Source of the DNA: Escherichia phage D2
Strand: one strand, 5' to 3'
Sequence record: OM475427
Length of the DNA stretch: 49,197 nt
The position numbers and the translations under genes are program-made. The notes below the pieces were generated by a model. That model did not search any database. It worked only from the letters and a program-made list of their open reading frames with translations, and was not told the DNA's origin. The stretch's first letter is position 1. Each line of letters begins with the position of its first letter. Positions 28,367 to 48,084 of the stretch are shown here, one piece after another.

Positions 28367-28647
28367 CTGGTGCAAACATCGGTGACGAATGCGCCCTGTT
28401 TGAAGCCACCCACGGTACTGCGCCGAAATATGCCGGTCAGGACAAAGTAAATCCTGGCTCTATTATTCTCTCCGCTGAGATGATGCTGCGCCATATGGGT
28501 TGGACTGAAGCGGCTGACCTGATTGTTAAAGGTATGGAAGGCGCAATCAATGCCAAGACCGTAACTTATGACTTCGAACGTCTGATGGAAGGCGCTAAGC
28601 TGCTGAAATGTTNCGAGTTTGGCGACGCGATCATCAAGAACATGTAA
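28367..28647 (+). pseudogene. icd: 3' fragment of icd (isocitrate dehydrogenase), last ~93 codons, at the phage attachment site
   Basis: Translation [92 protein letters not shown] matches the Icd C-terminus; upstream sequence is unrelated to icd. Confidence 0.85.
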
Positions 28648-28671
28648 TCACTACATGTGTTAAATATTTAA

Positions 28672-28698
28672 ACGGGCGTGTTATACGCCCGTTGTTTT
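28672..28698 (+). terminator. Rho-independent terminator after the icd 3' end
   Basis: Hairpin ACGGGCGTG-TTAT-ACGCCCGT followed by TGTTTTAT. Confidence 0.5.
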
Positions 28699-28753
28699 AT
28701 GATGATGTAAAATCTTCCCCAAAACTTTCCCCAAAACNNNNNNTGGCTATTTT

Positions 28754-30261: not shown

Positions 30262-30549
30262 CTATTTCCTGCGTATGGCACGTAACTTCTTAATGTGTTC
30301 TGCCGTTTCGATCTCTTCTGCTATCCGATCTGCATCAGCTTTATTCACAGGTTCAAAGTCATGATTAAAGCGGACGTTCTCCTGGTCGCGGCGTTTGATG
30401 TATTGCTGGTTTCTTTCCCGTTCATCCAGCAGTTCCAGCACAATCGATGGTGTTACCAATTCATGGAAAAGGTCTGCGTCAAATCCCCAGTCGTCATGCA
30501 TTGCCTGCTCTGCCGCTTCACGCAGTGCCTGAGAGTTAATTTCGCTCAC
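30262..30549 (-). CDS. Hypothetical early protein (95 aa)
   Basis: Acidic ORF in the xis-to-exo early region; overlaps the upstream gene by 4 nt. Confidence 0.4.
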   Translation of the reverse strand: MSEINSQALREAAEQAMHDDWGFDADLFHELVTPSIVLELLDERERNQQYIKRRDQENVRFNHDFEPVNKADADRIAEEIETAEHIKKLRAIRRK

Positions 30550-30767
30550 TTCGAACCTCTCTGTTTACTGATAAGTTCCAGATCCTCCTGGCAACTTGCA
30601 CAAGTCCGACAACCCTGAACGACCAGGCGTCTTCGTTCATCTATCGGATCGCCACACTCACAACAATGAGTGGCAGATATAGCCTGGTGGTTCAGGCGGC
30701 GCATTTTTATTGCTGTGTTGCGCTGTAATTCTTCTATTTCTGATGCTGAATCAATGATGTCTGCCAT
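30546..30767 (-). CDS. DksA/TraR-family C4 zinc-finger protein
   Basis: 73 aa with CxxC..17..CxxC (CCECGDPIDERRRLVVQGCRTCASC). Confidence 0.6.
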   Translation of the reverse strand: MADIIDSASEIEELQRNTAIKMRRLNHQAISATHCCECGDPIDERRRLVVQGCRTCASCQEDLELISKQRGSK

Positions 30768-30817
30768 CTTTCATTAATCCCTGAACTGTTGGTTAATACG
30801 CTTGAGGGTGAATGCGA

Positions 30818-30843
30818 ATAATAAAAAAGGAGCCTGTAGCTCC
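30818..30843 (-). terminator. Putative rho-independent terminator in the leftward early operon
   Basis: On the minus strand, hairpin GGGAGCUACAGGCUCC followed by UUUUUUAUUAUU. Confidence 0.4.
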
Positions 30844-30865
30844 CTGATGATTTTGCTTTTCATGT

Positions 30866-31048
30866 TCATCGTTCCTTAAAGACGCCGTTTAACATGCCGA
30901 TTGCCAGGCTTAAATGAGTCGGTGTGAATCCCATCAGCGTTACCGTTTCGCGGTGCTTCTTCAGTACGCTACGGCAAATGTCATCGACGTTTTTATCCGG
31001 AAACTGCTGTCTGGCTTTTTTTGATTTCAGAATTAGCCTGACGGGCAA
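30866..31048 (-). CDS. Lambda orf60a-like protein
   Basis: 60-aa ORF; sequence recalled as lambda orf60a (MPVRLILKSKKARQQFPDKNVDD...). Confidence 0.5.
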   Translation of the reverse strand: MPVRLILKSKKARQQFPDKNVDDICRSVLKKHRETVTLMGFTPTHLSLAIGMLNGVFKER

Positions 31049-31178
31049 TGCTGCGAAGGGCGTTTTCCTGCTGAGGTGTCATTGAACAAGTCCCATGTCG
31101 GCAAGCATAAGCACACAGAATATGAAGCCCGCTGCCAGAAAAATGCATTCCGTGGTTGTCATACCTGGTCTCTCTCAT
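30993..31178 (-). CDS. Lambda orf61-like protein
   Basis: 61-aa ORF; overlaps neighbours as in the lambda orf61/orf63 cluster. Confidence 0.45.
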   Translation of the reverse strand: MRETRYDNHGMHFSGSGLHILCAYACRHGTCSMTPQQENALRSIARQANSEIKKSQTAVSG

Positions 31179-31350
31179 CTGCTTCTGCTTTCGCCACCAT
31201 CATTTCCAGCTTTTGTGAAAGGGATGCGGCTAACGTATGAAATTCTTCGTCTGTTTCTACTGGTATTGGCACAAACCTGATTCCAATTTGAGCAAGGCTA
31301 TGTGCCATCTCGATACTCGTTCTTAACTCAACAGAAGATGCTTTGTGCAT
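31159..31350 (-). CDS. Lambda orf63-like protein
   Basis: 63-aa ORF, MHKASSVELRTSIEMAHSLAQIGIRFVPIPVETDEEFHTLAASL... Confidence 0.5.
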   Translation of the reverse strand: MHKASSVELRTSIEMAHSLAQIGIRFVPIPVETDEEFHTLAASLSQKLEMMVAKAEADERDQV

Positions 31351-31501
31351 ACAGCCCCTCGTTTATTATTTATCTCCTCAGCCAGCCGCTGTGCTTTCAG
31401 TGGATTTCGGATAACAGAAAGGCCGGGAAATACCCAGCCTCGCTTTGTAACGGAGTAGACGAAAGTGATTGCGCCTACCCGGATATTATCGTGAGGATGC
31501 G

Positions 31502-32182
31502 TCATCGCCATTGCTCCCCAAATACAAAACCAATTTCAGCCAGTGCCTCGTCCATTTTTTCGATGAACTCCGGCACGATCTCGTCAAAACTCGCCATGTA
31601 CTTTTCATCCCGCTCAATCACGACATAATGCAGGCCTTCACGCTTCATACGCGGGTCATAGTTGGCAAAGTACCAGGCATTTTTTCGCGTCACCCACATG
31701 CTGTACTGCACCTGGGCCATGTAAGCTGACTTTATGGCCTCGAAACCACCGAGCCGGAACTTCATGAAATCCCGGGAGGTAAACGGGCATTTCAGTTCAA
31801 GGCCGTTGCCGTCACTGCATAAACCATCGGGAGAGCAGGCGGTACGCATACTTTCGTCGCGATAGATGATCGGGGATTCAGTAACATTCACGCCGGAAGT
31901 GAATTCAAACAGGGTTCTGGCGTCGTTCTCGTACTGTTTTCCCCAGGCCAGTGCTTTAGCGTTAACTTCCGGAGCCACACCGGTGCAAACCTCAGCAAGC
32001 AGGGTGTGGAAGTAGGACATTTTCATGTCAGGCCACTTCTTTCCGGAGCGGGGTTTTGCTATCACGTTGTGAACTTCTGAAGCGGTGATGACGCCGAGCC
32101 GTAATTTGTGCCACGCATCTTCCCCCTGTTCGACAGCTCTCACATCGATCCCGGTACGCTGCAGGATAATGTCCGGTGTCAT
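31502..32182 (-). CDS. exo: Lambda exonuclease (Red-alpha)
   Basis: 226 aa, near-identical to lambda Exo ([65 protein letters not shown]...). Confidence 0.95.
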
Positions 32183-32964
32183 GCTGCCACCTTCTGCTCT
32201 GCGGCTTTCTGTTTCAGGAATCCAAGAGCTTTTACTGCTTCGGCCTGTGTCAGTTCTGACGATGCACGAATGTCGCGGCGAAATATCTGGGAACAGAGCG
32301 GCAATAAGTCGTCATCCCATGTTTTATCCAGGGCGATCAGCAGAGTGTTAATCTCCTGCATGGTTTCATCGTTAACCGGAGTGATGTCGCGTTCCGGCTG
32401 ACGTTCTGCAGTGTATGCAGTATTTTCGACAATGCGCTCGGCTTCATCCTTGTCATAGATACCAGCAAATCCGAAGGCCAGACGGGCACACTGAATCATG
32501 GCTTTATGACGTAACATCCGTTTGGGATGCGACTGCCACGGCCCCGTGATTTCTCTGCCTTCGCGAGTTTTGAATGGTTCGCGGCGGCATTCATCCATCC
32601 ATTCGGTAACGCAGATCGGATGATTACGGTCCTTGCGGTAAATCCGGCATGTACAGGATTCATTGTCCTGCTCAAAGTCCATGCCATCAAACTGCTGGTT
32701 TTCATTGATGATGCGGGACCAGCCATCAACGCCCACCACCGGAACGATGCCATTCTGCTTATCAGGAAAGGCGTAAATTTCTTTCGTCCACGGATTAAGG
32801 CCGTACTGGTTGGCAACGATCAGTAATGCGATGAACTGCGCATCGCTGGCATCACCTTTAAATGCCGTCTGGCGAAGAGTGGTGATCAGTTCCTGTGGGT
32901 CGACAGAATCCATGCCGACACGTTCAGCCAGCTTCCCAGCCAGCGTTGCGAGTGCAGTACTCAT
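32179..32964 (-). CDS. bet: Recombination protein Bet (Red-beta)
   Basis: 261 aa, lambda Bet ([66 protein letters not shown]...). Confidence 0.95.
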
Positions 32965-32969
32965 TCGTT

Positions 32970-33386
32970 TTATACCTCTGAATCAATATCAACCTGGTGG
33001 TGAGCAATGGTTTCAACCATGTACCGGATGTGTTCTGCCATGCGCTCCTGAAACTCAACATCGTCATCAAACGCACGGGTAATGGATTTTTTGCTGGCCC
33101 CGTGGCGTTGCAAATGATCGATGCATAGCGATTCAAACAGGTGCTGGGGCAGGCCTTTTTCCATGTCGTCTGCCAGTTCTGCCTCTTTCTCTTCACGGGC
33201 GAGCTGCTGGTAGTGACGCGCCCAGCTCTGAGCCTCAAGACGATCCTGAATGTAATAAGCGTTCATGGCTGAACTCCTGAAATAGCTGTGAAAATATCGC
33301 CCGCGAAATGCCGGGCTGATTAGGAAAACAGGAAAGGGGGTTAGTGAATGCTTTTGCTTGATCTCAGTTTCAGTATTAATATCCAT
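32970..33386 (-). CDS. gam: Gam, RecBCD inhibitor
   Basis: 138 aa, lambda Gam ([76 protein letters not shown]...). Confidence 0.9.
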
Positions 33387-33484
33387 TTTTTATAAGCGTC
33401 GACGGCTTCACGAAACATCTTTTCATCGCCAATAAAAGTGGCGATAGTGAATTTAGTCTGGATAGCCATAAGTGTTTGATCCAT
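33341..33484 (-). CDS. kil: Kil (FtsZ-targeting host-killing protein)
   Basis: 47 aa, [47 protein letters not shown], matching lambda Kil; overlaps the gam start by 46 nt as in lambda. Confidence 0.85.
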
Positions 33485-33549
33485 TCTTTGGGACTCCTGG
33501 CTGATTANNTNTNNNNAANGNGTTTCCATCCGTCACGTAATTTACGCAT
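33451..33549 (-). CDS. cIII: cIII-like protein (N-terminally different from lambda; interrupted by n bases; boundaries approximate)
   Basis: Minus-strand ATG preceded by AGGAG, reading MRKLRDGWK..., matching the lambda cIII core (ITRKLRDGWKRLIDILNQ). An n run (33508-33521) interrupts the reading. Confidence 0.45.
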
Positions 33550-33824
33550 AAAAACTCCTGCCCGTAAGCTGGGCTGCTGAACATATAGAGACTTCTGCGC
33601 GTATTCAGGCGGTGGATGGCCGCCGGTTGTCATAACTAAGCCGCCTCGTTGAAGCGACTGAGGTATGAGGTGTTGAGTTGATTTCAGCTGGTCACACCGA
33701 CGTTCACGCGTCCGCTTCACCCCTCGCACTCCCCGGAGCCTGCTGAAATTCAAGCTGCGGATCTAAGCGGTCATCGCAACGGTGAATCAGGTGATTGCCG
33801 TATCGTTGTGTTGTTGCGACATGG

Positions 33825-33945
33825 TGATAATAGCTATTGTTATTGGCTGTATCAATACTTATTGCTATTGATTGATGTGTTTTGATATTAACTGTTTGAT
33901 AGCAAAAAGAATTAATTTTGTGACTTGTATCGCATAGCGATAACT
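33825..33945. promoter_or_regulatory. Putative leftward early promoter/operator region (OL-like)
   Basis: Contains GCTATTGTTAT (33833-33843) and TTGCTATTGAT (~33862-33872), motifs that recur in the cI-cro intergenic region, plus palindrome TATCGCATAGCGATA (33928-33942). Lies between the cIII-like gene and the cargo cassette. Confidence 0.35.
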
Positions 33946-33990
33946 GAAGGGAGGATGTGGTGGTTTTTCGAACGGTTTGTGTGATGAGGG

Positions 33991-34020
33991 GACAAAAGAA
34001 AACCCGGCACGGTGGCCGGG
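33991..34020 (-). terminator. Rho-independent terminator downstream of the ASCH gene
   Basis: On the minus strand, hairpin CCCGGCCACCGUGCCGGG followed by UUUUCUUUUGU, immediately after the stop of ORF 34025-34402. Confidence 0.5.
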
Positions 34021-34024
34021 ATTC

Positions 34025-34402
34025 TTACGCAGGTAGGTAAAGATATGATTGTGGTGGCTTAATATTACTACCTAGAGCAGAGATAGGAATTGGTTCTTTA
34101 TATCTTTCCACTTCACCAATTTTTATTGCGTAGGCCTTTTCTCTACCTGAATAATATGAGTCATAAAATTGCTTAGAAATACCTGCGTGTTTTTCCGTCT
34201 TTTTCCAAAGAGATTCCGGTTCGTCACTTAGTATTGATTCAATACGGAATTGACCAACAACTTTACCTAATGGCATCGTGGCATAAATAACAACGGTGCT
34301 AATTTGCGGATTTTTGAATATACCTTTACGAAACTCGAACCGCTTTGTTCCGTTCAATATTTTTTCTGCAAACTCAGGCTTAATGGATAATAAAACTTTC
34401 AT
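34025..34402 (-). CDS. ASCH-domain protein (125 aa)
   Basis: N-terminal G-x-K-x-x-E-x-R motif (NGTKRFEFRK) characteristic of ASCH/PUA-like domains; AT-rich; overlaps the upstream gene by 23 nt. Confidence 0.6.
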   Translation of the reverse strand: MKVLLSIKPEFAEKILNGTKRFEFRKGIFKNPQISTVVIYATMPLGKVVGQFRIESILSDEPESLWKKTEKHAGISKQFYDSYYSGREKAYAIKIGEVERYKEPIPISALGSNIKPPQSYLYLPA

Positions 34403-35453
34403 TTATCTTGCCTAACTCGATGATCTTTAAGAACTGCTCATTTGTGAGTTTAAAGTGACTCCATCGGAATGCACGCGAACCATTTAGCCCCACATGATCT
34501 ATTAAAATAGCACGATTGGGTCTCTTTGGCAAAGACAGATTGTATGTGAATCTTATAATGAAAGGGTATCGACGTTCTTTATAGATTTTTCTGAGTTCAT
34601 CTTCAGAAAATACGCTAAAACGAATACAATAGTCTACAAAACTATCTTCGCTTAAAAATTCAGAAATATTTTTTACGCTCTCAACTACACATAATGTACT
34701 GGCTACAGAACGATAGCGAGCTGGCCCTTTTTTGTCTCCGGTTCTATAGATGACAATGATATCTCCTCTTTTCATTCCCATCACAGAACGCATTCCACAT
34801 ATGTAAATTTTATGAATGCTGTTAGCATGGGATATATCTTTGACAATATCTGGTGATTCATTTACAAGTTTTGAATCAGGGAATAGTCTAGTGTGATATT
34901 CGGGATAAATCGCCAGTAAATATTTGTTGGCCCTTGATGTCATTATTCGAGGGTAATCTAATAAAATATCACCATAAGGCTCATGCAAAGACCTCGCATA
35001 TACAAACTCTTTCCCGTTATGTGTTTCTTTTTCACCATGAATGTAAAATCCGTACGTTTGGAAAAGTTTTATTAGATGGACGTGTTTGTCGAAAACAGTA
35101 ACATAAATATCATCAGATTTTGATGAAAATGCATGGTCAAACGCTTTTTTTAGAAATCGTTGTCCGCGAAGGGTGCCTTTAGATTCAAATTTGAATGTTC
35201 CTATCTTTAGATGACGTCCTGGTGGGAGCGCTGGATTAATGTCATTTGCATCATCATTTTCTTTTAGATACATAAAACCTTCGATTTTATGCTTGTCATC
35301 ATAGAGCACATAAGCTGATTCTCCTTCTCTGGCTTTTTTTTCTAACCAAAGAGGAAACTCTTTATAATCTTTTTTTAAAGAGTCAAAAAATGGGTCATTG
35401 TGATCAAAATCAGAGAATTTCTCATATTTTAAAGTATCCATTAAGTTCTCCAT
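34380..35453 (-). CDS. Hypothetical 357-aa protein, possible GNAT-like N-terminal region, unknown C-terminal domain
   Basis: Long AT-rich ORF directly downstream of cI on the same strand. Weak acetyltransferase-like motif (KGTLRGQRFLKKAF..VTVFDKHVHLIKLFQTYGF). C-terminal half has a D..ExK-like pattern (GDIIVIYRTGD..LCVVESVK). No confident family assignment. Confidence 0.45.
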   Translation of the reverse strand: MENLMDTLKYEKFSDFDHNDPFFDSLKKDYKEFPLWLEKKAREGESAYVLYDDKHKIEGFMYLKENDDANDINPALPPGRHLKIGTFKFESKGTLRGQRFLKKAFDHAFSSKSDDIYVTVFDKHVHLIKLFQTYGFYIHGEKETHNGKEFVYARSLHEPYGDILLDYPRIMTSRANKYLLAIYPEYHTRLFPDSKLVNESPDIVKDISHANSIHKIYICGMRSVMGMKRGDIIVIYRTGDKKGPARYRSVASTLCVVESVKNISEFLSEDSFVDYCIRFSVFSEDELRKIYKERRYPFIIRFTYNLSLPKRPNRAILIDHVGLNGSRAFRWSHFKLTNEQFLKIIELGKINESFIIH

Positions 35454-35521
35454 TCTAAAATGAATAATTAAGTTGTTTTACTGAATGAGCACAATGCCCG
35501 GTTGATAATTTTTAATTGGTA

Positions 35522-36214
35522 CTATCCATGCTTCCTATACGTCTGCGGCATGCTCCCAATAACTTTCCCGAAGATAAATACCCGGTTCATCTCATCTTTC
35601 TCGATCGGGTCCCACGGTGAGTAGCTTTTGTTATCAGAGATAACCAGCAGCTTATCCTTCATCATTTGCAGGCGCTTTACATGGGCTGTGTCGTCGTACA
35701 GAAACGCATAGATACCATCACCGTCGAAAGATTTAACCGTGATATCAACGAATAGAAGATCACCAGGTTCAATCGTTCCTGACATGCTGTCACCGCGTAC
35801 GTTAATGATGCGGATATTTTCTGCCTTCCTACCATCGAACATGTGACGAGCATCGTCAAACGAGTACTCAACCGAGCGTAGAACTTCTACAAACTCACGG
35901 TTGATGACTCCCGGCCCGGCACTCACTTCTATATCAAGAACGTCAATCTTGAAGTATTTGGGATGGTTGGCAGTAGGCTTCCCTAATTGTTGACCGTCAT
36001 TTCTCATCGGGCCTATGCCTGATGAGAGCCACTCTGTTCGAACACCCAATGCATTAGCTATTTCAACAATTTTTGTTGAGCCGCGCGCGTTGCCGCTTGT
36101 CAGTCTCCAGATTGTGGGTTGAGCTACGCCAGACGCCTTTGCAAGAGCGCCTTGAGACATTCCAGATTGTTCCATCGCTAGGTTTAAGCGATCAGCAAGA
36201 GTTTCTTTTTTCAT
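35522..36214 (-). CDS. cI: CI-like prophage repressor (HTH plus LexA/S24 peptidase-like domain)
   Basis: N-terminal HTH (MSQGALAKASGVAQPTIWRL) and C-terminal S24-like domain with GDSM (Ser) and VKRL (Lys) motifs. ATG at 36214 preferred; the ORF track extends to a TTG at 36250. Divergently placed against cro. Confidence 0.85.
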   Translation of the reverse strand: MKKETLADRLNLAMEQSGMSQGALAKASGVAQPTIWRLTSGNARGSTKIVEIANALGVRTEWLSSGIGPMRNDGQQLGKPTANHPKYFKIDVLDIEVSAGPGVINREFVEVLRSVEYSFDDARHMFDGRKAENIRIINVRGDSMSGTIEPGDLLFVDITVKSFDGDGIYAFLYDDTAHVKRLQMMKDKLLVISDNKSYSPWDPIEKDEMNRVFIFGKVIGSMPQTYRKHG

Positions 36215-36324
36215 AAGTTTTAATTTATACGCTTGCGTATTGATGGTCAAAACACGTTTTGCTATTGTTATGATTAATACGCATTGCTATTATTTATTCA
36301 TTGTAATACCAATAGGAATTAATA
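36215..36324. promoter_or_regulatory. Putative OR/PRM-PR operator-promoter region between cI and cro
   Basis: Perfect palindrome ATACGCTTGCGTAT (36227-36240), related ATACGCATTGCTAT (36277-36290), and GCTATTGTTAT (36261-36271) / TTGCTATTAT (36284-36293), shared with the OL-like region. Confidence 0.45.
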
Positions 36325-36552
36325 ATGACAAATCAAACCATTCAACTCGCAATCAGTATTACAGGTAGTCAAAAACGACTGGCAGATCTATGCGGTGTAG
36401 CCCAGCCCACTGTTTGGCGTTGGCTACACGGTGGCGGAATTGATGCCCGCTATGTAATGAAAATTGTCTCAGCCACTGGTGGAAAGATTAAACCAGCAGA
36501 TATTCGTCCCGACCTCGCACCATTGTTTAACGCGAGTAATTCTGCCGCCTAA
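36325..36552 (+). CDS. cro: Cro-like HTH regulator (YdaS family)
   Basis: 75 aa, HTH (SQKRLADLCGVAQPTVWRWLHGG), divergent from cI. Confidence 0.7.
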   Translation: MTNQTIQLAISITGSQKRLADLCGVAQPTVWRWLHGGGIDARYVMKIVSATGGKIKPADIRPDLAPLFNASNSAA

Positions 36553-36576
36553 TCTGCGGCGTTAACTGATAAGGCA

Positions 36577-37122
36577 ATGACTATGCAACCACTTACATAC
36601 CAACAGACTAGCGGATTTAGCCCGACTGCGGTGATAAATCGTTCTCAAACAAAACAGGCGCCAGGCCACGAAAAAATCCGTGATGCCGTTCGCGCCTGGT
36701 CGGCTGCAGATAATCAGGATGTTGTTGCCGCACTCATTGTGAATGAGTATCGGGAGCAGGGCGGCGGCACCATCGATTTTCCTGATGATGTCAGCCGTGC
36801 ACGCCAGAAGCTGTTCCGCTTCCTCGATAACAAATTCGATTCTGAAAAATACCGAAATAACGTGCGTGAACTGACCCCGGCAATTCTGGCGGTACTACCG
36901 CTGGAATATCGCGGCCACCTGGTTGAGCAGGATAGCTTCATGGCTCGGCTGGCTGAAATGGAAAAGGAACTCAGTGAGGCAAAACAGGCTGTCATTCTCA
37001 ACGCACCACGCCACCAGAAACTGAAGGAGATGAGTGAAGGCATTGTGTCGATGTTTCGTGTGGACCCGGATCTGGCTGGTCCACTGATGGCGATGGTCAC
37101 CACCATGCTGGGGGCAATATGA
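36577..37122 (+). CDS. YdaT-family protein in the cII position
   Basis: 181 aa; EYREQGGG and LTPAILAVLPLEYRGHL resemble Rac prophage YdaT (EYLRQGGG, LIPAILAILPRELRHRL); located right after cro. Confidence 0.55.
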   Translation: MTMQPLTYQQTSGFSPTAVINRSQTKQAPGHEKIRDAVRAWSAADNQDVVAALIVNEYREQGGGTIDFPDDVSRARQKLFRFLDNKFDSEKYRNNVRELTPAILAVLPLEYRGHLVEQDSFMARLAEMEKELSEAKQAVILNAPRHQKLKEMSEGIVSMFRVDPDLAGPLMAMVTTMLGAI

Positions 37123-37208
37123 CAGGTTCGGAAATGGCGAAAGCCGGTCTGCGCGAACAGAACCGACTTTCAGGTGCAAATCGTAACACACTCATTGCGG
37201 GAGGAATT

Positions 37209-38140
37209 ATGGCAAACACTGCTGAGATATTCAATTTTCCAGTGCCGGATGTGGCACAAAAGGAGCCGCGCGTGGCAGATCTCGATGATGGTTATACGCG
37301 CATTGCAAATGAGTTGCTGGAAGCTGTGATGCTGGCCGGATTAACACAGCACCAGCTTCTGGTCTTCCTGGCTGTCATGCGCAAAACATATGGCTTTAAT
37401 AAAAAACTGGATTGGGTGAGCAACGAGCAACTTTCCGAGTTGACCGGGATATTGATTCTCAACTTAGCGAGATTACAAAGTTACCTGTCAAACGGTGCAA
37501 TGAAGCCAAGTTAGAACTCGTCAGAATGAATATTATCAAGCAGCAAGGCGGCATGTTTGGACCAAATAAAAACATCTCAGAATGGTGCATCCCTCAAAAC
37601 GAGGGAAAATCCCCTAAAACGAGGGATAAAACATCCCTCAAATTGGGGGATTGCTATCCCTCAAAACAGGGGGACACAAAAGACACTATTACAAAAGAAA
37701 AAAGAAAAGATTATTCGTCAGAGAATTCTGGCGAATCCTCTGACCAGCCAGAAAACGACCTTTCTGTGGTGAAACCGGATGCTGCAATTCAGAGCGGCAG
37801 CAAGTGGGGGACAGCAGAAGACCTGACCGCCGCAGAGTGGATGTTTGACATGGTGAAGACTATCGCACCATCAGCCAGAAAACCGAATTTTGCTGGGTGG
37901 GCTAACGATATCCGCCTGATGCGTGAACGTGACGGACGTAACCACCGCGACATGTGTGTGCTGTTCCGCTGGGCATGCCAGGACAACTTCTGGTCCGGTA
38001 ACGTGCTGAGCCCGGCCAAACTCCGCGATAAGTGGACCCAACTCGAAATCAACCGTAACAAGCAACAGGCAGGCGTGACAGCCAGCAAACCAAAACTCGA
38101 CCTGACAAACACAGACTGGATTTACGGGGTGGATCTATGA
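37209..38140 (+). pseudogene. O: Replication initiator O, split by a frameshift at a ~30-bp imperfect tandem duplication
   Basis: N-terminal part (ORF to 37514) is a diverged O N-domain. C-terminal part (ORF 37412-38140) matches lambda O from DSQLSEITKLPVKRCNEAKLELVRMNIIKQQGGMFGPNKNISEWCIPQNEGKSPKTRDK... in a different frame. The junction has two adjacent homologous copies (SNEQLSELTG / DSQLSEITK). Confidence 0.7.
37588..37720 (+). repeat. ori-lambda: four iterons plus AT-rich region inside O
   Basis: ATCCCTCAAAACGAGGGA, AAATCCCCTAAAACGAGGGA, ACATCCCTCAAATTGGGGGA, CTATCCCTCAAAACAGGGGGA, then ACAAAAGAAAAAAGAAAAGATTATTCG, matching the lambda origin. Confidence 0.85.
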
Positions 38141-38838
38141 AAAACATCGCCGCACAGATGGTTAACTTTGACCGTGAGCAGATGCGTCGGATCGCCAACA
38201 ACATGCCGGAACAGTACGACGAAAAGCCGCAGGTACAGCAGGTAGCGCAGATCATCAACGGTGTGTTCAGCCAGTTACTGGCAACTTTCCCGGCGAGCCT
38301 GGCTAACCGTGACCAGAACGAAGTGAACGAAATCCGTCGCCAGTGGGTTCTGGCTTTTCGGGAAAACGGGATCACCACGATGGAACAGGTTAACGCAGGA
38401 ATGCGCGTAGCCCGTCGGCAGAATCGACCATTTCTGCCATCACCCGGGCAGTTTGTTGCATGGTGCCGGGAAGAAGCATCCGTTACCGCCGGACTGCCAA
38501 ACGTCAGCGAGCTGGTTGATATGGTTTACGAGTATTGCCGGAAGCGAGGCCTGTATCCGGATGCGGAGTCTTATCCGTGGAAATCAAACGCGCACTACTG
38601 GCTGGTTACCAACCTGTATCAGAACATGCGGGCCAATGCGCTTACTGATGCGGAATTACGCCGTAAGGCCGCAGATGAGCTTGTCCATATGACTGCGAGA
38701 ATTAACCGTGGTGAGGCGATCCCTGAACCAGTAAAACAACTTCCTGTCATGGGCGGTAGACCTCTAAATCGTGCACAGGCTCTGGCGAAGATCGCAGAAA
38801 TCAAAGCTAAGTTCGGACTGAAAGGAGCAAGTGTATGA
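38137..38838 (+). CDS. P: Replication protein P (DnaB helicase loader)
   Basis: 233 aa, lambda P sequence and length. Confidence 0.95.
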   Translation: MKNIAAQMVNFDREQMRRIANNMPEQYDEKPQVQQVAQIINGVFSQLLATFPASLANRDQNEVNEIRRQWVLAFRENGITTMEQVNAGMRVARRQNRPFLPSPGQFVAWCREEASVTAGLPNVSELVDMVYEYCRKRGLYPDAESYPWKSNAHYWLVTNLYQNMRANALTDAELRRKAADELVHMTARINRGEAIPEPVKQLPVMGGRPLNRAQALAKIAEIKAKFGLKGASV

Positions 38839-39125
38839 CGGGCAAAGAGGCAATTATTCATTACCTGGGGACGCATAATAGCTTCTGTGCGCCGGACGTT
38901 GCCGCGCTAACAGGCGCAACAGTAACCAGCATAAATCAGGCCGCGGCTAAAATGGCACGGGCAGGTCTTCTGGTTATCGAAGGTAAGGTCTGGCGAACGG
39001 TGTATTACCGGTTTGCTACCAGGGAAGAACGGGAAGGAAAGATGAGCACGAACCTGGTTTTTAAGGAGTGTCGCCAGAGTGCCGCGATGAAACGGGTATT
39101 GGCGGTATATGGAGTTAAAAGATGA
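38835..39125 (+). CDS. ren: Ren
   Basis: 96 aa, lambda Ren (MTGKEAIIHYLGTHNSFCAPDVAALTGATVTSINQAAAKMARAGLLVIEGKVWRTVYYRFATREERE...). Confidence 0.9.
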   Translation: MTGKEAIIHYLGTHNSFCAPDVAALTGATVTSINQAAAKMARAGLLVIEGKVWRTVYYRFATREEREGKMSTNLVFKECRQSAAMKRVLAVYGVKR

Positions 39126-39150
39126 CCATCTACATTACTGAGCTAATAAC

Positions 39151-39180
39151 AGGCCTGCTGGTAATCGCAGGCCTTTTTAT
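39151..39180 (+). terminator. tR2-like rho-independent terminator
   Basis: Hairpin AGGCCTGC..GCAGGCCT followed by TTTTTATTT immediately after ren. Confidence 0.5.
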
Positions 39181-39198
39181 TTGGGGGAGAGGGAAGTC

Positions 39199-39537
39199 AT
39201 GAAAAAACTAACCTTTGAAATTCGATCTCCAGCACATCAGCAAAACGCTATTCACGCAGTACAGCAAATCCTTCCAGACCCAACCAAACCATTATGGCCA
39301 TCTGTTGGTACAATTATTTGTTATTGTGCATCATTCTGGTTATTAGCTCAGACGCTGGCTTATATACCTACAGGGATTGCTTATGCTATCTGGTCAGGAG
39401 TCGGTATTGTCCTGATTAGCTTACTATCATGGGGATTTTTCGGCCAACGGTTGGACCTGCCAGCCATTATAGGCATGATGTTGATTTGTGCCGGTGTGTT
39501 GGTTATTAATTTATTGTCACGAAGCACACCACATTAA
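39199..39537 (+). pseudogene. In-frame fusion of ninB 5' end (32 codons) to emrE 3' end (about 80 codons)
   Basis: MKKLTFEIRSPAHQQNAIHAVQQILPDPTKP (lambda NinB N-terminus) joined to WPSVGTIICYCASFWLLAQTLAYIPTGIAYAIWSGVGIVLISLLSWGFFGQRLDLPAIIGMMLICAGVLVINLLSRSTPH (EmrE from about residue 31); lacks EmrE TM1. Confidence 0.7.
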
Positions 39538-39792
39538 AAATAATTTATTTTTAAACGACTAAAATATGGAGGTTCGTATATTTGTATGGGCCTCGTTTTA
39601 TGCTTTTTGTTAATGTCTTTAGTTTTTATTCATTCTTTTGATCTTTCAAGACCATGGTGTAAGAAAATTGCAATACGATTATTGTTGTATATTCAAGATA
39701 ATGTGACCTTAATTGTCTTTTTAAATAAAAATTAAACAAAAATCATATCTCACCACTAAGGTTTATAAAAGCATACTTTAGCAGGTGTCACC

Positions 39793-41319
39793 ATGAAAAA
39801 AGCCATAGCATATATGCGATTTTCATCACCAGGTCAGATGTCTGGTGATTCATTAAACCGCCAGAGAAGGCTTATTACTGAATGGCTAAAGGTAAATAGT
39901 GATTATTACCTTGATACCGTAACGTATGAAGATTTGGGGTTAAGCGCATTCAATGGAAAGCATGCACAATCAGGAGCTTTTTCGGAATTTTTAGATGCTA
40001 TAGAACATGGTTACATATTGCCAGGGACTACATTGTTAGTTGAAAGTCTGGACAGACTTTCAAGAGAAAAAGTCGGTGAAGCGATTGAGCGTCTGAAATT
40101 GATTTTGAATCACGGTATTGATGTTATAACTCTTTGCGATAATACAGTCTATAATATAGACTCATTGAATGAGCCATATTCATTAATAAAAGCCATACTT
40201 ATAGCACAAAGGGCAAATGAAGAAAGCGAGATAAAGTCAAGTCGGGTTAAATTATCATGGAAGAAAAAACGGCAGGATGCACTGGAATCAGGCACGATTA
40301 TGACGGCGTCTTGTCCGAGATGGCTCTCATTGGATGACAAAAGAACAGCTTTTATTCCAGACCCCGACAGGGTGAAAACGATTGAGCTAATTTTTAAACT
40401 CAGGATGGAAAGGCGATCATTGAATGCAATAGCTAAGTATTTAAATGATCATGCTGTAAAAAATTTTTCAGGAAAAGAAAGTGCATGGGGGCCTTCTGTA
40501 ATTGAAAAATTATTAGCGAATAAAGCTCTGATAGGTATATGCGTACCTTCATATCGTGCAAGAGGGAAAGGGATAAGTGAAATCGCTGGCTATTATCCCA
40601 GAGTCATATCAGATGATTTGTTTTACGCTGTACAGGAAATTCGGTTGGCACCTTTTGGTATTAGCAATAGTAGCAAGAATCCTATGCTAATAAATCTACT
40701 TCGAACAGTTATGAAGTGTGAGGCTTGTGGTAATACCATGATTGTTCATGCGGTATCTGGACGTTTGCATGGCTATTATGTTTGTCCGATGAGAAGATTA
40801 CATCGATGTGACAGGCCATCAATAAAAAGAGATTTGGTTGATTATAATATCATTAATGAATTGCTTTTTAATTGTAGCAAAATTCAACCAGTTGAAAACA
40901 AGAAAGATGCTAATGAAACTTTAGAGTTAAAAATTATTGAGCTTCAGATGAAAATTAATAATTTAATCGTTGCATTGTCTGTCGCGCCTGAAGTTACCGC
41001 TATAGCAGAGAAAATAAGACTATTAGATAAGGAATTACGAAGGGCTTCGGTATCATTAAAAACTTTGAAGAGTAAAGGGGTGAGTTCACTTGGTGATTTT
41101 CATGCTATTGATTTAACCAGTAAAAATGGGCGAGAGCTATGTCGTACACTTGCCTATAAAATATTCGAAAAAATTATAATTAATACAGATAATAAAACCT
41201 GTGATATCTATTTTATGAATGGCATTGTTTTTAAACACTATCCTTTAATGAAAGTAATATCCGCCCAGCAGGCGATAAGTACTCTTAAATATATGGTTGA
41301 TGGTGAGGTTTATTTTTGA
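39793..41319 (+). CDS. ybcK: Large serine recombinase (DLP12 YbcK-like)
   Basis: 508 aa; N-terminal resolvase/invertase catalytic domain (AYMRFSSPGQ..SLNRQ) and large C-terminal recombinase/zinc-ribbon domain; AT-rich. Confidence 0.85.
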   Translation: MKKAIAYMRFSSPGQMSGDSLNRQRRLITEWLKVNSDYYLDTVTYEDLGLSAFNGKHAQSGAFSEFLDAIEHGYILPGTTLLVESLDRLSREKVGEAIERLKLILNHGIDVITLCDNTVYNIDSLNEPYSLIKAILIAQRANEESEIKSSRVKLSWKKKRQDALESGTIMTASCPRWLSLDDKRTAFIPDPDRVKTIELIFKLRMERRSLNAIAKYLNDHAVKNFSGKESAWGPSVIEKLLANKALIGICVPSYRARGKGISEIAGYYPRVISDDLFYAVQEIRLAPFGISNSSKNPMLINLLRTVMKCEACGNTMIVHAVSGRLHGYYVCPMRRLHRCDRPSIKRDLVDYNIINELLFNCSKIQPVENKKDANETLELKIIELQMKINNLIVALSVAPEVTAIAEKIRLLDKELRRASVSLKTLKSKGVSSLGDFHAIDLTSKNGRELCRTLAYKIFEKIIINTDNKTCDIYFMNGIVFKHYPLMKVISAQQAISTLKYMVDGEVYF

Positions 41320-41643
41320 GTAATAATCACTTTTTCAACCGTGCTATGGTATGAAAGTAAAGTAACTAATATGATATTAACTATCTTGAACGAAGCGCCC
41401 TGAGCTATAGTTTTACTATAGGCACTGTCACTGGATGTTGGCATTCTTGCTCTAGTAGCTCAACAATACCCAATCACAAAACAATTCACTGATAACAAAC
41501 TTTGTGCACGTGCTTGGTTATGGCGAACAGGTGATGTTAACCTCTTGCCAGAATGCCACTCCACTTCATTAAGTATCTGAGCACCGAGAGGCTGGTCACG
41601 CCCCCATTAAAAATAATTTCTTTTGAATCGAGTGAAATAGGTT

Positions 41644-41670
41644 AGCCCGCATAAGTGCGGGCTGCTTTTT
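41644..41670 (+). terminator. Rho-independent terminator between convergent ybcK and esterase genes
   Basis: Hairpin AGCCCGC-ATAAGT-GCGGGCT followed by GCTTTTT. Confidence 0.45.
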
Positions 41671-42712
41671 ACAGGTCAGCGTTTGTTTTTTGTTGTTGGG
41701 TAGCGGTTTTTATGGGGGTTCCCAGGTTTTTAGTAAACCACTCAACAACTCTGTTTATAATAATTGGCTGATACCATGTATTATCGCCATGCTCGGCCCC
41801 TTCTACCAGCACGTACTCAGCGTTATCACCGTTCTTCTTCAACATCCTGAATAGTTTGGCGCTTTGCTCAGGTGAAACCAGAGTGTCTTTGCTACCATGC
41901 ATAATAAGAAATGGGGGTTTTACTCCTTTCATATGTCCGATTGGACTGGCGTTTAGCGCTTTTTCTTTTGACGCTGTGATGGGGGCTCCCGCAAAATTTC
42001 TGAATGCAGGGCCATTGATCATTAAGGCTTCGGTTACGGCAGGAGAGCGATGAACCTCCTGCACTGATTCAGGGAACCCCTCGCCAATATTCAACAAGTC
42101 AGAAATCCCATAAAGTGTGGCAACTGCCTGAACATCTGAGGATTGCTGAAGAAAGTCACCTTTATCAAAGGTTTTGTCACCATTTGTAGTTCCCATCATC
42201 TGGGCAAGCCATCCACCGGCAGAGTCACCCAGAACTCCGATTCTTTGAGGATCAATCCCATAATTGCTGGCATGCTCTCTCAGGTAACGTATTGCAGCTT
42301 TTCCATCCTCAACTGGTGCTGGAAATGTATCAGGAATTGTTCTGTATTCTACAGCGGCCACAACAAAACCAGCTTCTGCCAGAGCCATTCTCATTTCAAT
42401 AAATTTGTCATGTTCAGAAGACATGAATCCGCCGCCGGGATAATAAATAATGGCTGGTTTTAAATCATTTGTTCGCGGGACAAGAACTGACATGTGAAGC
42501 TGTCTGACAGAACGAGTTCCTTTTATCTGGGAATAAACAACATCACCAATGAGATCGACCTGGTTTCTGGTCGGTGAAACACTAATGATATCTGCACCCG
42601 GGGTGTAACCAGGAAGATTAGTCTGGACAGGTGTTGCACAACTCCCGACCGACATGGCCATTGACATACCATACAATAGTGTTGCAGATGATAATATCTT
42701 GTTAATTTTCAT
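41669..42712 (-). CDS. Secreted alpha/beta-hydrolase (esterase/lipase-like), probable lipoprotein
   Basis: Signal peptide with lipobox-like SVGSC; HGG-type oxyanion motif (YYPGGGF); nucleophile elbow GDSAGG; C-terminal HG (GAEHGD). Confidence 0.7.
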   Translation of the reverse strand: MKINKILSSATLLYGMSMAMSVGSCATPVQTNLPGYTPGADIISVSPTRNQVDLIGDVVYSQIKGTRSVRQLHMSVLVPRTNDLKPAIIYYPGGGFMSSEHDKFIEMRMALAEAGFVVAAVEYRTIPDTFPAPVEDGKAAIRYLREHASNYGIDPQRIGVLGDSAGGWLAQMMGTTNGDKTFDKGDFLQQSSDVQAVATLYGISDLLNIGEGFPESVQEVHRSPAVTEALMINGPAFRNFAGAPITASKEKALNASPIGHMKGVKPPFLIMHGSKDTLVSPEQSAKLFRMLKKNGDNAEYVLVEGAEHGDNTWYQPIIINRVVEWFTKNLGTPIKTATQQQKTNADL

Positions 42713-43159
42713 GTTTTACATGCCTTGACTTATCGGATGAAATTCTCTTACTGAATTTAACGGCAGTTTAATAGCCGTACAACTCGTGGTAGCCAGGGAA
42801 ATATCCCAGTCGTGGTTAAGGTTGTACTTGACGGCTATTATTTCAACAATGCTTAAAGTGAGAGCTTAAGGTTATGCGTATGTTTTACAGTCCGAGTAGA
42901 TTCTGACCAATAGCTTCTTTGTATAATTCTGTCAGAAATAAATCTTGGCTTGCATGAAGTTTGAGACCTTATCTTGTTTGATTATGAATAATCAATTCGC
43001 CATAATTGTATCACCGGAGCCTGAACAACTCCGGTGACTTCTGCGCTAAACGGGGACGTTTATGCGCACACACAATCCAAACTCTCTTCTCCCTTCACAG
43101 ATGCAGAAATGCACCTGCGTTTTTTTGCATCCAGCGTCTGACCTCTGTGGAGGTGAAGC

Positions 43160-43615
43160 GTGAACCTACCACAAGATGGCATCAAACTGCATCGCGGTAA
43201 CTTCATCGCTATCGGCCAGCAGATCCAGCCTTATCTGGAGGACGGAAAATGCTTTCGCATGGTGCTTAAACCGTGGCGTGAGAAACGCAGTCTTTCCCAG
43301 AATGCACTCAGCCATATGTGGTACAGCGAAATCAGTGAATACCTCATCAGCAGGGGGAAATCGTTCGCTACCGCAGCATGGGTAAAAGATGCTCTCAAAC
43401 ACACATACCTCGGTTATGAAACCAAGGACCTGGTTGATGTCGTAACCGGCGAAATCACTACTATCCAGTCGTTACGCCATACCTCCGATCTTGATACCGG
43501 AGAGATGTATGTCTTCCTGTGTAAGGTTGAAGCCTGGGCGATGAATATTGGCTGCCACCTGACTATTCCGCAGAGCTGCGAGTTCCAGCTGCTGCGCGAC
43601 AAGCAGGAGGCGTAA
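43160..43615 (+). CDS. ybcN: YbcN / NinB-family protein
   Basis: 151 aa, GTG start with GGAGGTG RBS; DLP12 ybcN-like; shares the S-L-S-Q-N motif seen in NinB/Orf-family proteins. Confidence 0.7.
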
Positions 43616-43785
43616 TGGCTACACCGCTTATTCGTGTCATGAACGGACACATCTACAAAGTACCAAATCGTCGTAAGCGTAAACCTGAGCTGAAGCCATC
43701 CGAAATACCAACACTGCTCGGGTATACCGCCAGCCTGGTTGATAAAAAATGGTTGCGACTGGCAGCAAGGAGGAATCATGGCTGA
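43615..43785 (+). CDS. ninE: NinE
   Basis: 56-aa [59 protein letters not shown], overlapping the ybcN stop (TAATG). Confidence 0.7.
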   Translation: MATPLIRVMNGHIYKVPNRRKRKPELKPSEIPTLLGYTASLVDKKWLRLAARRNHG

Positions 43786-44068
43786 TTTGAGAAAAGCAGC
43801 GCGTGGTCGGGAATGCCAGGTAAGAATCCCTGGCGTATGTAATGGCAATCCTGAAACGTCAGTACTGGCACATATCCGGCTGGCTGGATTGTGCTGTACC
43901 GGTATCAAACCGCCAGACCTGATTGCCACCATTGCATGTTCTGCCTGCCACGACGAAATCGACCGTCGCACGCATTTTGTTGACGCTGGATATGCAAAAG
44001 AATGCGCGCTGGAAGGTATGGCGAGAACACAGGTTATCTGGCTGAAAGAGGGGGTAATTAAGGCGTGA
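43778..44068 (+). CDS. ybcO: YbcO-like protein (DUF1364, putative nuclease)
   Basis: 96 aa from ATG preceded by AGGAGG; cysteine-rich ([20 protein letters not shown]). Confidence 0.7.
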
Positions 44069-44427
44069 ATACTTACCACATCACACTACCCTGGCCGCCG
44101 AGCAATAATCGCTATTACCGCCATAATCGCGGACGCACGCATATCAGCGCAGAGGGGCAGGCATACCGCGATAATGTCGCCCGAATCATTAAAAACGCAA
44201 TGCTGGATATCGGCCTGGCTATTCCTGTGAAAATCAGCATTGAGTGCCACATGCCGGATCGCCGTCGCCGTGACCTTGATAATCTGCAAAAGGCCGCTTT
44301 TGACGCACTCACCAAAGCAGGTTTCTGGCTGGATGATGCTCAGGTCGTTGATTACCGCGTTGTGAAGATGCCCGTTACCAAAGGTGGGAAGCTGGAGCTG
44401 ACTATCACTGAACTGGGAGATGAATGA
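44065..44427 (+). CDS. rusA: Holliday junction resolvase RusA
   Basis: 120 aa, [38 protein letters not shown]... matches RusA. Confidence 0.9.
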
Positions 44428-44564
44428 TGTTTGAGTCTTATATGGCAGAGCGTCTTCGCCGCCGCTGGGTGCGCCTGCGCTTATATCGTTTTCCTGGTTC
44501 TGTTTTGACCGATTACCGAATACTGAAGAATTACGCCAAAACCCTGACAGGAGCAGGAGTATGA
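44424..44564 (+). CDS. ylcG: YlcG-like small protein
   Basis: 46-aa [49 protein letters not shown] overlapping the rusA stop. Confidence 0.5.
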
Positions 44565-44649
44565 AGTCAGAGATAACAATCAACTAATACTGTTTTGTTG
44601 ATTTTTGCTTGTAATTGGCGTTCTGGTCTGATTTTTGTGGAGTAAGTTG

Positions 44650-45033
44650 ATGCGTGATATTCAGATGGTTCTTGAGCGTTGGGGAGCGTGGGCGGCTAAT
44701 AATCATGAAGATGTGACCTGGTCGTCCGTTGCCGCCGGTTTTAAGGGATTAATTCCTTCAAAAGTAAAATCTCGCCCGCAATGTTGTGACGATGACGCGA
44801 TGATCATTTGCGGGTGCATGGCCCGTCTGAAAAAGAACAACAGCGATTTACACGATTTATTAGTAGATTATTATGTATGTGGTATGACATTCATGTCACT
44901 GGCAAGTAAGCATTGCTGCTCGGATGGTTATATCGGGAAAAGGTTACAGAAGGCTGAGGGCATAATTGAAGGGATGTTAATGGCATTAGATATCCGGTTA
45001 GATATGGATATCGTTGCTAATAATTCTAATTGA
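44650..45033 (+). CDS. quuD: Late gene antiterminator Q (QuuD / Q21-82 type)
   Basis: [39 protein letters not shown]...; cysteine-rich zinc-binding region ([12 protein letters not shown]); followed by a terminator about 140 nt downstream. Confidence 0.8.
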
Positions 45034-45059
45034 TATGCAATTGTTTACTAAAAGTTATT

Positions 45060-45083
45060 AAAAATGGGGCGTGGAAACGCCCC
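45060..45083 (-). terminator. Possible minus-strand terminator downstream of nmpC
   Basis: On the minus strand, GGGGCGUUUCCACGCCCC followed by AUUUUUAAUAACUUUU. Confidence 0.3.
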
Positions 45084-45170
45084 CAAAATAAAGGGTAATA
45101 TATAACAGAAGGTTTATATAGTAAGAAGCAAGGTAGTGCTTCTAAAGGAAGTGGCTTGAGGGCTCCACTT

Positions 45171-45210
45171 ATATGTTGCGGAGGCAAAGCCTCCCGCAAC
45201 ATATCTTTTT
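45171..45210 (+). terminator. tR'-like rho-independent terminator downstream of Q (end of a 6S-like late leader)
   Basis: 15-bp stem ATATGTTGCGGAGGC/GCCTCC(C)GCAACATAT with AAA loop, followed by CTTTTTCG. Confidence 0.5.
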
Positions 45211-45221
45211 CGTAAGTCAGA

Positions 45222-46893: not shown

Positions 46894-47109
46894 ATGAAAT
46901 CCATGGATAAGTTAACAACGGGTGTCGCCTATGGCACCTCAGCAGGTAGTGCCGGGTACTGGTTTTTACAGTTGCTCGATAAAGTCACTCCGTCACAGTG
47001 GGCTGCAATCGGTGTGCTGGGTAGCCTGGTTTTTGGCCTGCTGACGTATCTGACAAATCTTTATTTCAAGATTAAAGAAGACAGGCGTAAGGCTGCGAGA
47101 GGAGAGTAA
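46894..47109 (+). CDS. essD: Pinholin (S21-type class II holin) with dual-start motif
   Basis: 71 aa, [26 protein letters not shown]..., two TMDs; Met1-Lys-Ser-Met4 dual start as in phage 21 S21. Confidence 0.85.
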
Positions 47110-47113
47110 TCCA

Positions 47114-48046: not shown

Positions 48047-48084
48047 AAAAGTCTTATCATAAGATTTTTGTATATGGATGCATT

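What the first reader, a model, noticed from the sequence alone, without database searches (positions are those of the whole stretch)
37400..37520. Replication initiator O interrupted at an imperfect ~30-bp tandem duplication at the junction between a diverged N-domain and lambda-identical sequence
The diverged O N-terminal domain reads in one frame through ...KKLDWVSNEQLSELTG and then terminates. The lambda-identical remainder (DSQLSEITKLPVKRC...), including the ori iterons, is in a different frame. Two adjacent homologous copies of the same ~11-codon segment are present, suggesting a recombination junction between two O alleles that left a duplication not divisible by three. If real, O is inactive and the prophage cannot replicate from ori-lambda; alternatively this is an assembly artefact at a mosaic boundary.
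Basis: seen in the sequence. Interest (0 to 1): 0.5.

Follow-up and report, generated by a model that had tools for sequence, protein, structure and literature searches.

The report
Chimeric-assembly artefact breaking phage O gene
The broken replication-initiator gene is really in the sequence, but it sits at one of about fifteen abrupt joins where phage lambda sequence has been pasted over the record of a different phage (4A7), so it is almost certainly an assembly or consensus artefact and not a biological mutation.

Summary
A 4A7-type O gene start (ATG 37209) runs to a stop at 37512-37514. Lambda-identical O sequence begins at 37454 (lambda O codon 72) in another frame. A 32-nt stretch, codons 72-82, is present twice, once from each allele.

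The biological reading is not supported. The window is the public record of phage 4A7 (NC_049946). It has the same arbitrary first base and no differences over most 4A7-type blocks. Eight lambda-identical blocks overwrite it. Each block is centred on a lambda/4A7 homology core or a 20-26-nt exact match. Each overshoots that anchor by 157-331 nt into non-homologous sequence, replacing a near-equal length of 4A7 (shift of 4 nt or less). The 58 N characters cluster at switch points and at sites where the two phages differ.

Other joins truncate tail gene J and fuse ninB to emrE. The O junction 37-mer is absent from all three public contig collections scanned. No complete E. coli genome or phage record spans the junction. 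Both uninterrupted parental versions are common.

Best explanation: a reference-guided consensus of a sample containing lambda DNA, about 0.9 confidence. It is not a real feature, and interest is low.

The parts
37209..37514 (+). 5' fragment of a 4A7-type O gene: 81 full 4A7 codons and most of codon 82, then 19 out-of-frame codons read from lambda sequence, then a stop codon
   Evidence: Window 33547-37454 is 100% identical to 4A7 33569-37476. Pfam Phage_rep_O profile positions 1-66.
37422..37453 (+). Copy 1 of the doubled segment: 4A7-type O codons 72-82 (NEQLSELTGIL), lacking the last base
37454..37485 (+). Copy 2 of the doubled segment: lambda O codons 72-82 (DSQLSEITKLP, last codon incomplete)
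37454..38140 (+). Lambda O codons 72-299 plus stop, out of frame with the 5' fragment
   Evidence: 100% identical to lambda 38899-39585. Pfam Phage_rep_O profile positions 53-95.
37589..37673 (+). The four ori-lambda iterons, carried inside the lambda block
   Evidence: Lambda annotation 39034-39118, minus the 1445-nt offset of the 100% block.
37454..39291 (+). The whole lambda-identical block: O from codon 72, P, ren and the first 31 codons of ninB. It replaces 1836 nt of 4A7 with 1838 nt of lambda.
37674..39110 (+). The only part of that block where lambda and 4A7 are homologous (95.8%). The block overshoots it by 220 nt on the left and 181 nt on the right.
39181..39537 (+). Right-hand join of the same block (39291/39292). 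Lambda ninB codons 1-31 are fused in frame to 4A7 emrE from codon 30, with no homology at the breakpoint.
   Evidence: 4A7 and lambda annotation.

Best explanation
The window is not the sequence of one physical DNA molecule. It is a consensus built on the coordinate system of the public phage 4A7 record. Wherever lambda sequence could be anchored to 4A7, it has overwritten the reference. Anchors were either stretches of lambda/4A7 homology (about 80-97% identity) or exact matches of 20-26 nt. The overwriting runs on for roughly one read length (157-331 nt) into sequence that is not homologous. Elsewhere the 4A7 bases stand unchanged. Where two sequence types competed, N was called.

The O junction at 37454 is the left edge of one such overhang. 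Lambda sequence anchored in the conserved C-terminal half of O, P and ren (window 37674-39110) extends 220 nt leftwards, through the lambda iterons, to lambda O codon 72. There it abuts untouched 4A7 sequence. The 4A7 O is 10 codons longer than lambda O in this non-alignable middle part, so equal-position replacement puts lambda codon 72 next to 4A7 codon 82. That gives a 32-nt doubled segment and a frame break.

Shown here: the mosaic map, the overshoot pattern, the N positions, the identity to the reference record and the absence of the junction elsewhere. Inferred: that the process was read mapping and consensus calling on a sample containing lambda DNA.
For: 1. Sharp switch at the O junction. 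Window 37150-37454 is 100% identical to 4A7-family phages, and 37454-37750 is 100% identical to lambda. The two share only one G at the breakpoint.

2. Whole-window map. There are eight lambda blocks: 594-1262, 3932-4434, 7497-18550, 18674-19396, 30375-33546, 37455-39291, 47416-47885 and 48677-49197. They alternate with 4A7 blocks. Almost every 500-nt bin is 100% one parent or the other.

3. Every lambda block sits on a lambda/4A7 homology core or seed found by direct comparison of the two parents. Overshoot beyond the core, left/right:
- 242/213 nt for core 7739-18340
- 171/185 nt for core 18845-19211
- 197/199 nt for core 30572-33347
- 220/181 nt for core 37674-39110
- 189 nt on the left for the 47603 core
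- 188/236 nt at cos
- 318/331 nt around a 20-nt exact match at 912-931
- 248/229 nt around a 26-nt exact match at 4180-4205
Real homologous recombination places crossovers inside homology, not about 200 nt outside it at every end.

4. The non-homologous overhangs replace near-equal lengths of 4A7. The 4A7-minus-window offset changes by 4 nt or less across each overhang. Illegitimate recombination has no reason to conserve length in this way.

5. The window starts at exactly base 1 of NC_049946, an arbitrary point inside the small terminase gene. It has no differences from that record across blocks 1-587, 1267-3929, 4438-7496, 33547-37453 and 47900-48672. Sibling records start 55-283 nt away.

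6. The window has 58 N characters. They lie at switch points (18554, 18673, 33508-33521, 47444-47454, 47854-47861, 48688-48691). They also lie at the sites where lambda and 4A7 differ within a short shared island (several Ns between 24038 and 24106).

7. Other joins also wreck genes. J is cut to 1058 codons, against 1132 in both parents, at the N at 18554. A lom 3' fragment follows the N at 18673. ninB is fused to emrE. The window is a complete cos-spanning phage genome with no host flanks, which does not fit a molecule lacking both J and O.

8. The junction 37-mer has no exact match in viral, genome or metagenome contigs. No record among 5,426 complete E. coli genomes or 50,697 phage records spans it. 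Each uninterrupted parental 37/38-mer has at least 120 hits in viral contigs alone.
Against: No reads are available, so the process is inferred from its footprint.

- The O junction itself has no N.
- The length change across the O block is +2 nt and not exactly 0, so some gapped alignment must be assumed.
- Two exact lambda/4A7 matches of 20 and 23 nt (4A7 3714-3733 and 37294-37316) did not produce lambda blocks, so the anchoring rule is not simply 'any seed of 20 nt or more'.
- I could not identify the record the window comes from, or the software used.
Confidence: 0.9

Rival explanations
1. A de novo misassembly of a mixed lysate or lysogen containing both lambda and a 4A7-like phage. The assembler jumped between the two genomes. 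This is still an artefact, but made without 4A7 as a mapping reference.
For: The block mosaic and the N characters at sites polymorphic between the two phages also fit a mixture of two phages.
Against: - Graph assemblers switch genomes inside shared k-mers. Here the joins lie 157-331 nt outside any shared sequence and have 0-1 nt of identity at the breakpoint.
- The window begins at the same arbitrary base as the 4A7 record and matches it without a single difference over most 4A7-type blocks.
- Non-homologous segments are swapped at near-equal length.
Confidence: 0.05
2. A real hybrid phage or prophage. Illegitimate (microhomology or Red-mediated) recombination between lambda and a 4A7-like element joined two O alleles out of register, leaving a replication-dead element.
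For: Lambdoid phages are mosaic, and natural O genes with a 4A7-like N-terminus and lambda-like C-terminus exist, for example in E. coli 536. The frame break is unambiguous in the sequence.
Against: - It would need about 15 independent illegitimate joins, each about 200 nt beyond a homology core and each conserving the length of the replaced segment.
- The element would also lack J.
- Yet the window is a cos-to-cos genome without host flanks.
- N characters sit at the joins.
- The junction is absent from every collection searched.
Confidence: 0.03
3. O is made intact from the two frames by programmed ribosomal frameshifting at the doubled segment.
For: None beyond the presence of two overlapping frames.
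Against: - Both parental O genes are single uninterrupted frames of 309 and 299 codons.
- By my reading of the sequence, there is no slippery heptamer in 37440-37514.
- The product would carry a duplicated helix of the Phage_rep_O domain.
- The arrangement is unique to this window.
Confidence: 0.01

Closest known systems
Lambda replication initiator O with ori-lambda iterons inside the gene (NC_001416 38686-39585)
   Same: Window 37454-38140 is base-for-base lambda O codons 72-299. It includes the four iterons, and is followed by lambda P, ren and the start of ninB.
   Different: Lambda O codons 1-71 are missing. In their place stands the N-terminus of a different O allele, in another frame.
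O-like initiator of phage 4A7 (Bievrevirus; YP_009909472) and of prophages such as that in E. coli 536 (WP_000147913)
   Same: Window 37209-37454 is identical to the first 82 codons of this allele.
   Different: The intact allele continues ...LTGILPHKCSAAKSVLVKRG... through its own central region (LPESGKK repeats at the position of the lambda iterons) to 309 codons. The window lacks all of that.
Reference-biased or chimeric consensus sequences from mapping a mixed or wrong sample to a related reference (a known class of sequence-record error, from general knowledge)
   Same: Reference bases are kept where nothing maps. Foreign sequence appears wherever it can be anchored. Read-length overhangs, N characters at competing positions and the reference's own start coordinate are all present.
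   Different: The software and the reads are unknown. The 2-4-nt length shifts imply gapped read ends and not pure position-for-position replacement.

Membership tests
Phage_rep_O (PF04492) lambdoid replication initiators | One continuous N-terminal origin-binding domain matching the full 95-position profile | tested here: not met
   The profile is split between two frames, 1-66 and 53-95. The intact 4A7 and lambda proteins match positions 1-95 and 2-95 in one piece.
Phage_rep_O (PF04492) lambdoid replication initiators | A single open reading frame of about 300 codons ending in the conserved P-interacting C-terminal half | tested here: not met
   There is a stop at 37512-37514 after 101 codons. 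The C-terminal half is present but in another frame.
Phage_rep_O (PF04492) lambdoid replication initiators | Iterons inside the gene that match the specificity of the gene's own N-terminal domain | tested here: not met
   The iterons at 37589-37673 are lambda's. The N-terminal 82 codons are 4A7-type. The 4A7-type central region is absent. That binding is allele-specific comes from established knowledge of lambdoid O proteins and was not tested here.
Natural lambdoid mosaic junction (homologous or relaxed-homology recombination) | The crossover lies within sequence shared by both parents, in register | tested here: not met
   The parents share 1 nt at the breakpoint. The nearest homology core starts 220 nt downstream. 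The register is off by 32 nt.
Natural lambdoid mosaic junction (homologous or relaxed-homology recombination) | The junction recurs in independent isolates or assemblies | tested here: not met
   No record spans the junction, and there are no exact matches. The parental versions have at least 120 hits each.
Reference-guided consensus chimera | Same coordinate origin as the reference record, and exact identity to it where the foreign sequence cannot align | tested here: met
   Window base 1 is NC_049946 base 1. There are no differences in five 4A7-type blocks totalling about 11 kb, and bins are 100% identical across most of the other 4A7-type sequence.
Reference-guided consensus chimera | Foreign blocks centred on alignable cores with overhangs of about one read length and near-equal-length replacement | tested here: met
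   All eight lambda blocks fit. Overhangs are 157-331 nt and length shifts are 4 nt or less.
Reference-guided consensus chimera | Ambiguity codes where two sequence types compete | tested here: met
   N characters lie at switch points and at lambda/4A7 polymorphic sites (several between 24038 and 24106).
Reference-guided consensus chimera | No single read or molecule spans the joins | not testable with these tools
   Reads are not available.

The most novel reading that the evidence does not exclude
The join is physical. A lambda x 4A7-like hybrid arose by repeated illegitimate recombination and persists as a replication-dead, tail-defective element whose O gene is split by a 32-nt heteroallelic duplication.
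Probability: 0.03. Interest if true: 0.35.

Novelty: not a real feature. Interest (0 to 1): 0.05.

Why it matters
The main use is as a warning. This record should not be used to infer a defective O, a truncated J, a NinB-EmrE fusion protein, or lambda x 4A7 recombination breakpoints. The footprint could be used to flag similar chimeric consensus records in phage databases:
- foreign blocks made of a homology core plus about 200 nt on each side
- equal-length replacement of the reference sequence
- N characters at the switch points
- a start coordinate inherited from the reference record

If the join were real, it would be an ordinary inactivating lesion in a cryptic lambdoid element.

Tried and rejected
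- Searched for the junction in complete E. coli genomes and phage records, and as an exact 37-mer in viral, genome and metagenome contigs. Nothing was found. The positive controls with both parental versions worked.
- Considered that the window is a DLP12-like prophage of an E. coli chromosome, because of emrE, ybcK and nmpC next to ren. Rejected: these genes belong to the 4A7 phage backbone, and the window spans cos without host flanks.
- Considered a natural hybrid O like that of E. coli 536. That gene is 4A7-type throughout its N-terminal and middle parts and is intact.
- Considered programmed frameshifting. Rejected (see rival explanations).
- Tried to identify the source of the non-lambda, non-4A7 patches at the IS66-family element and at the icd fragment. 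Other IS66-family copies match one stretch of the IS patch at 99.7%. The icd query reaches only 96.1% to any one genome, so it looks mixed as well. The sample's host could not be identified.
- A literature search for the 4A7 record or its genus gave nothing that bears on this window.

Full report
**What is at the coordinates.**
- An O-type replication initiator gene starts at ATG 37209. The mechanical ORF 37119..37514 has an upstream in-frame start.
- It reads MANTAEIF...KKLDWVSNEQLSELTGIL. It then runs 19 codons in the wrong frame of the following sequence and stops at 37512-37514.
- From 37454 a second frame encodes DSQLSEITKLPVKRCNEAKLELV... through to the O stop at 38138-38140.
- The segment 37422-37453 (NEQLSELTGIL) and the segment 37454-37485 (DSQLSEITKLP) are the same 11 codons of two different O alleles, placed one after the other. 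The offset is 32 nt.
- The repeat finder sees the conserved 17-nt core at 76% identity and spacing 32.
- Pfam's Phage_rep_O profile is covered at positions 1-66 by the first frame and 53-95 by the second.
- Removing either copy in silico restores a 299-codon frame.

**What the two halves are.**
- Window 37150-37454 is 100% identical to phage 4A7 and its siblings (4C10, 1W, 3W, Perceval). Window 37454-37750 is 100% identical to lambda from position 38899, the first base of O codon 72.
- No phage record and none of 5,426 complete E. coli genomes spans the join.
- At the breakpoint the parents share a single G. 4A7 continues GCCGCACAAG..., and lambda is preceded by ...AGAATCACC.
- The intact 4A7 O has 309 codons and its own central region. 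Lambda O has 299 codons.

**The whole window.** I fetched the full 4A7 and lambda records and mapped the window onto both.
- The window alternates between the two parents, and almost every 500-nt bin is 100% one or the other.
- The lambda blocks are 594-1262, 3932-4434, 7497-18550, 18674-19396, 30375-33546, 37455-39291, 47416-47885 and 48677-49197.
- The window begins at base 1 of the 4A7 record, an arbitrary point inside the small terminase gene. Sibling records begin 55-283 nt away.
- The 4A7-type blocks 1-587, 1267-3929, 4438-7496, 33547-37453 and 47900-48672 have no differences from that record.

**The pattern that decides it.** Direct comparison of 4A7 with lambda shows where the two phages are alignable. 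Every lambda block in the window sits on one of those places and overshoots it at both ends.

| Anchor (window coordinates) | Left overshoot (nt) | Right overshoot (nt) |
|---|---|---|
| Core 7739-18340 | 242 | 213 |
| Core 18845-19211 | 171 | 185 |
| Core 30572-33347 | 197 | 199 |
| Core 37674-39110 (the O block) | 220 | 181 |
| Core starting at 47603 | 189 | none (the block ends at 47885, inside the core) |
| cos island | 188 | 236 |
| 20-nt exact match in the terminase gene, 912-931 | 318 | 331 |
| 26-nt exact match in the portal gene, 4180-4205 | 248 | 229 |

- Within the overhangs, lambda sequence with no similarity to 4A7 replaces a near-equal length of 4A7 sequence. The offset between window and 4A7 coordinates changes by 4 nt or less across each overhang.
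- Homologous recombination puts crossovers inside homology. Illegitimate recombination has no reason to conserve length or to sit one read length beyond a homology core about fifteen times over.
- Mapping reads, or aligning fragments, onto a 4A7 reference and calling a consensus produces exactly this footprint.

**Further signs of a consensus.**
- The window has 58 N characters.
- Single Ns mark the joins at 18554 and 18673. Clusters lie at 33508-33521, 47444-47454, 47854-47861 and 48688-48691, all next to parental switches.
- In a short island shared by lambda and 4A7, between 24038 and 24106, Ns fall on the positions where the two differ.
- The last 46 nt of the window are the lambda counterpart of its first 46 nt, so the lambda overhang runs past the end of the linear reference.
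- Small patches that are neither 4A7 nor lambda occur at an IS66-family element (22883-23309), at the icd fragment by attP (28551-28743), in rusA (44042-44086) and across the holin gene start (46989-47150).
- One stretch of the IS patch matches other chromosomal IS66-family copies at 99.7%. The icd query matches no single genome better than 96.1%. This fits further foreign reads, but I did not resolve it.

**Consequences at other joins.**
- Joins that fall in alignable coding sequence (terminase, portal) stay in frame.
- Joins in non-alignable sequence break genes. J ends at 18584 after 1058 codons, against 1132 in both parents. It is followed by a 118-nt piece of 4A7 J and then the 3' end of lambda lom.
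- The right end of the O block fuses ninB codon 31 to emrE codon 30.
- A molecule lacking O and J could not have been propagated as the cos-spanning, flank-free phage genome that the window represents.

**How the O break arises under this explanation.**
- Lambda sequence anchored in the conserved C-terminal half of O, P and ren extends 220 nt leftwards across the lambda iterons (window 37589-37673) to lambda O codon 72. There it meets untouched reference.
- The 4A7 O is 10 codons longer than lambda O within this unalignable middle part. Replacement at roughly equal position therefore sets lambda codon 72 against 4A7 codon 82.
- The block is 1838 nt where 4A7 has 1836 nt. The overlap is 32 nt and the frame is lost.

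**Independent check.** The 37-mer across the join has no exact match in IMG/VR viral contigs, in one genome per GTDB species, or in JGI metagenome contigs.

**Comparison with what is known.** Both halves belong to the Phage_rep_O family, but the composite fails the family's structural criteria: one continuous domain, one frame, and iterons matched to the N-terminal domain. It also fails the criteria for a natural mosaic junction. It meets every testable criterion of a reference-guided chimeric consensus. The untestable criterion is the absence of junction-spanning reads.

**Verdict.** The biological interpretation is not supported. A further 0.05 goes to another kind of misassembly, about 0.03 to a real illegitimate recombinant and about 0.01 to programmed frameshifting. 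Novelty: not a real feature. Interest: 0.05.

Noticed in passing
window 18554, 18673, 23168-23199, 24038-24106, 24560-24687, 28613, 28738-28743, 29763, 33508-33521, 47444-47454, 47854-47861, 48688-48691: The window has 58 N characters. Most lie at switches between 4A7-type and lambda-type sequence, or at sites where the two phages differ.
   Followed up: yes
window 15408-18584 and 18555-19396: Tail-tip gene J is cut to 1058 codons (1132 in both parents) at the N at 18554. Next come 118 nt of 4A7 J, another N, and then the 3' end of lambda lom joined to the side-tail-fibre gene. This is the same kind of out-of-register join as in O.
   Followed up: yes
window 39181-39537: An in-frame fusion ORF joins lambda NinB residues 1-31 to EmrE/QacE from residue 30. 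It is created by the right edge of the lambda block at 39291/39292. It is an artefact, not a real fusion gene.
   Followed up: yes
window 1-46 and 49152-49197: The window starts at the same base as the 4A7 record. Its last 46 nt are the lambda homologue of its first 46 nt. Circularising it would therefore put a 46-nt heteroallelic duplication into the small terminase gene.
   Followed up: partly
window 594-1262 and 3932-4434: Two short lambda blocks lie inside the large terminase gene and across the end of the portal gene, where the parents are only about 66-69% identical overall. Each is centred on an exact lambda/4A7 match, of 20 nt and 26 nt. The ORFs stay open, giving chimeric proteins on paper.
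   Followed up: partly
window 22883-23309, 28551-28743, 44042-44086, 46989-47150: These patches differ from 4A7 and are not lambda. They lie in an IS66-family transposase end, the icd fragment next to attP, rusA, and the start of the holin gene. They probably come from other homologous DNA in the sample, such as host chromosome or other prophages. The IS patch matches other E. coli IS66-family copies at 99.7%.
   Followed up: partly
window 24120-27569 and 39200-46304 (4A7 backbone): The 4A7 backbone carries sitABCD iron/manganese transporter genes in the b region. Its right arm is DLP12-like: emrE/qacE, a ybcK-type serine recombinase, ybcN, ninE, rusA, a Q-like gene and an nmpC/ompC-type porin. 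These are properties of the reference phage, not of this finding.
   Followed up: no
4A7 37294-37316 (window 37272-37294) and 4A7 3714-3733: Exact lambda/4A7 matches of 23 nt (the VADLDDGY-coding part of O) and 20 nt did not attract a lambda block, unlike the 20-nt and 26-nt matches elsewhere. The anchoring rule of whatever process built the consensus is therefore not fully explained.
   Followed up: no
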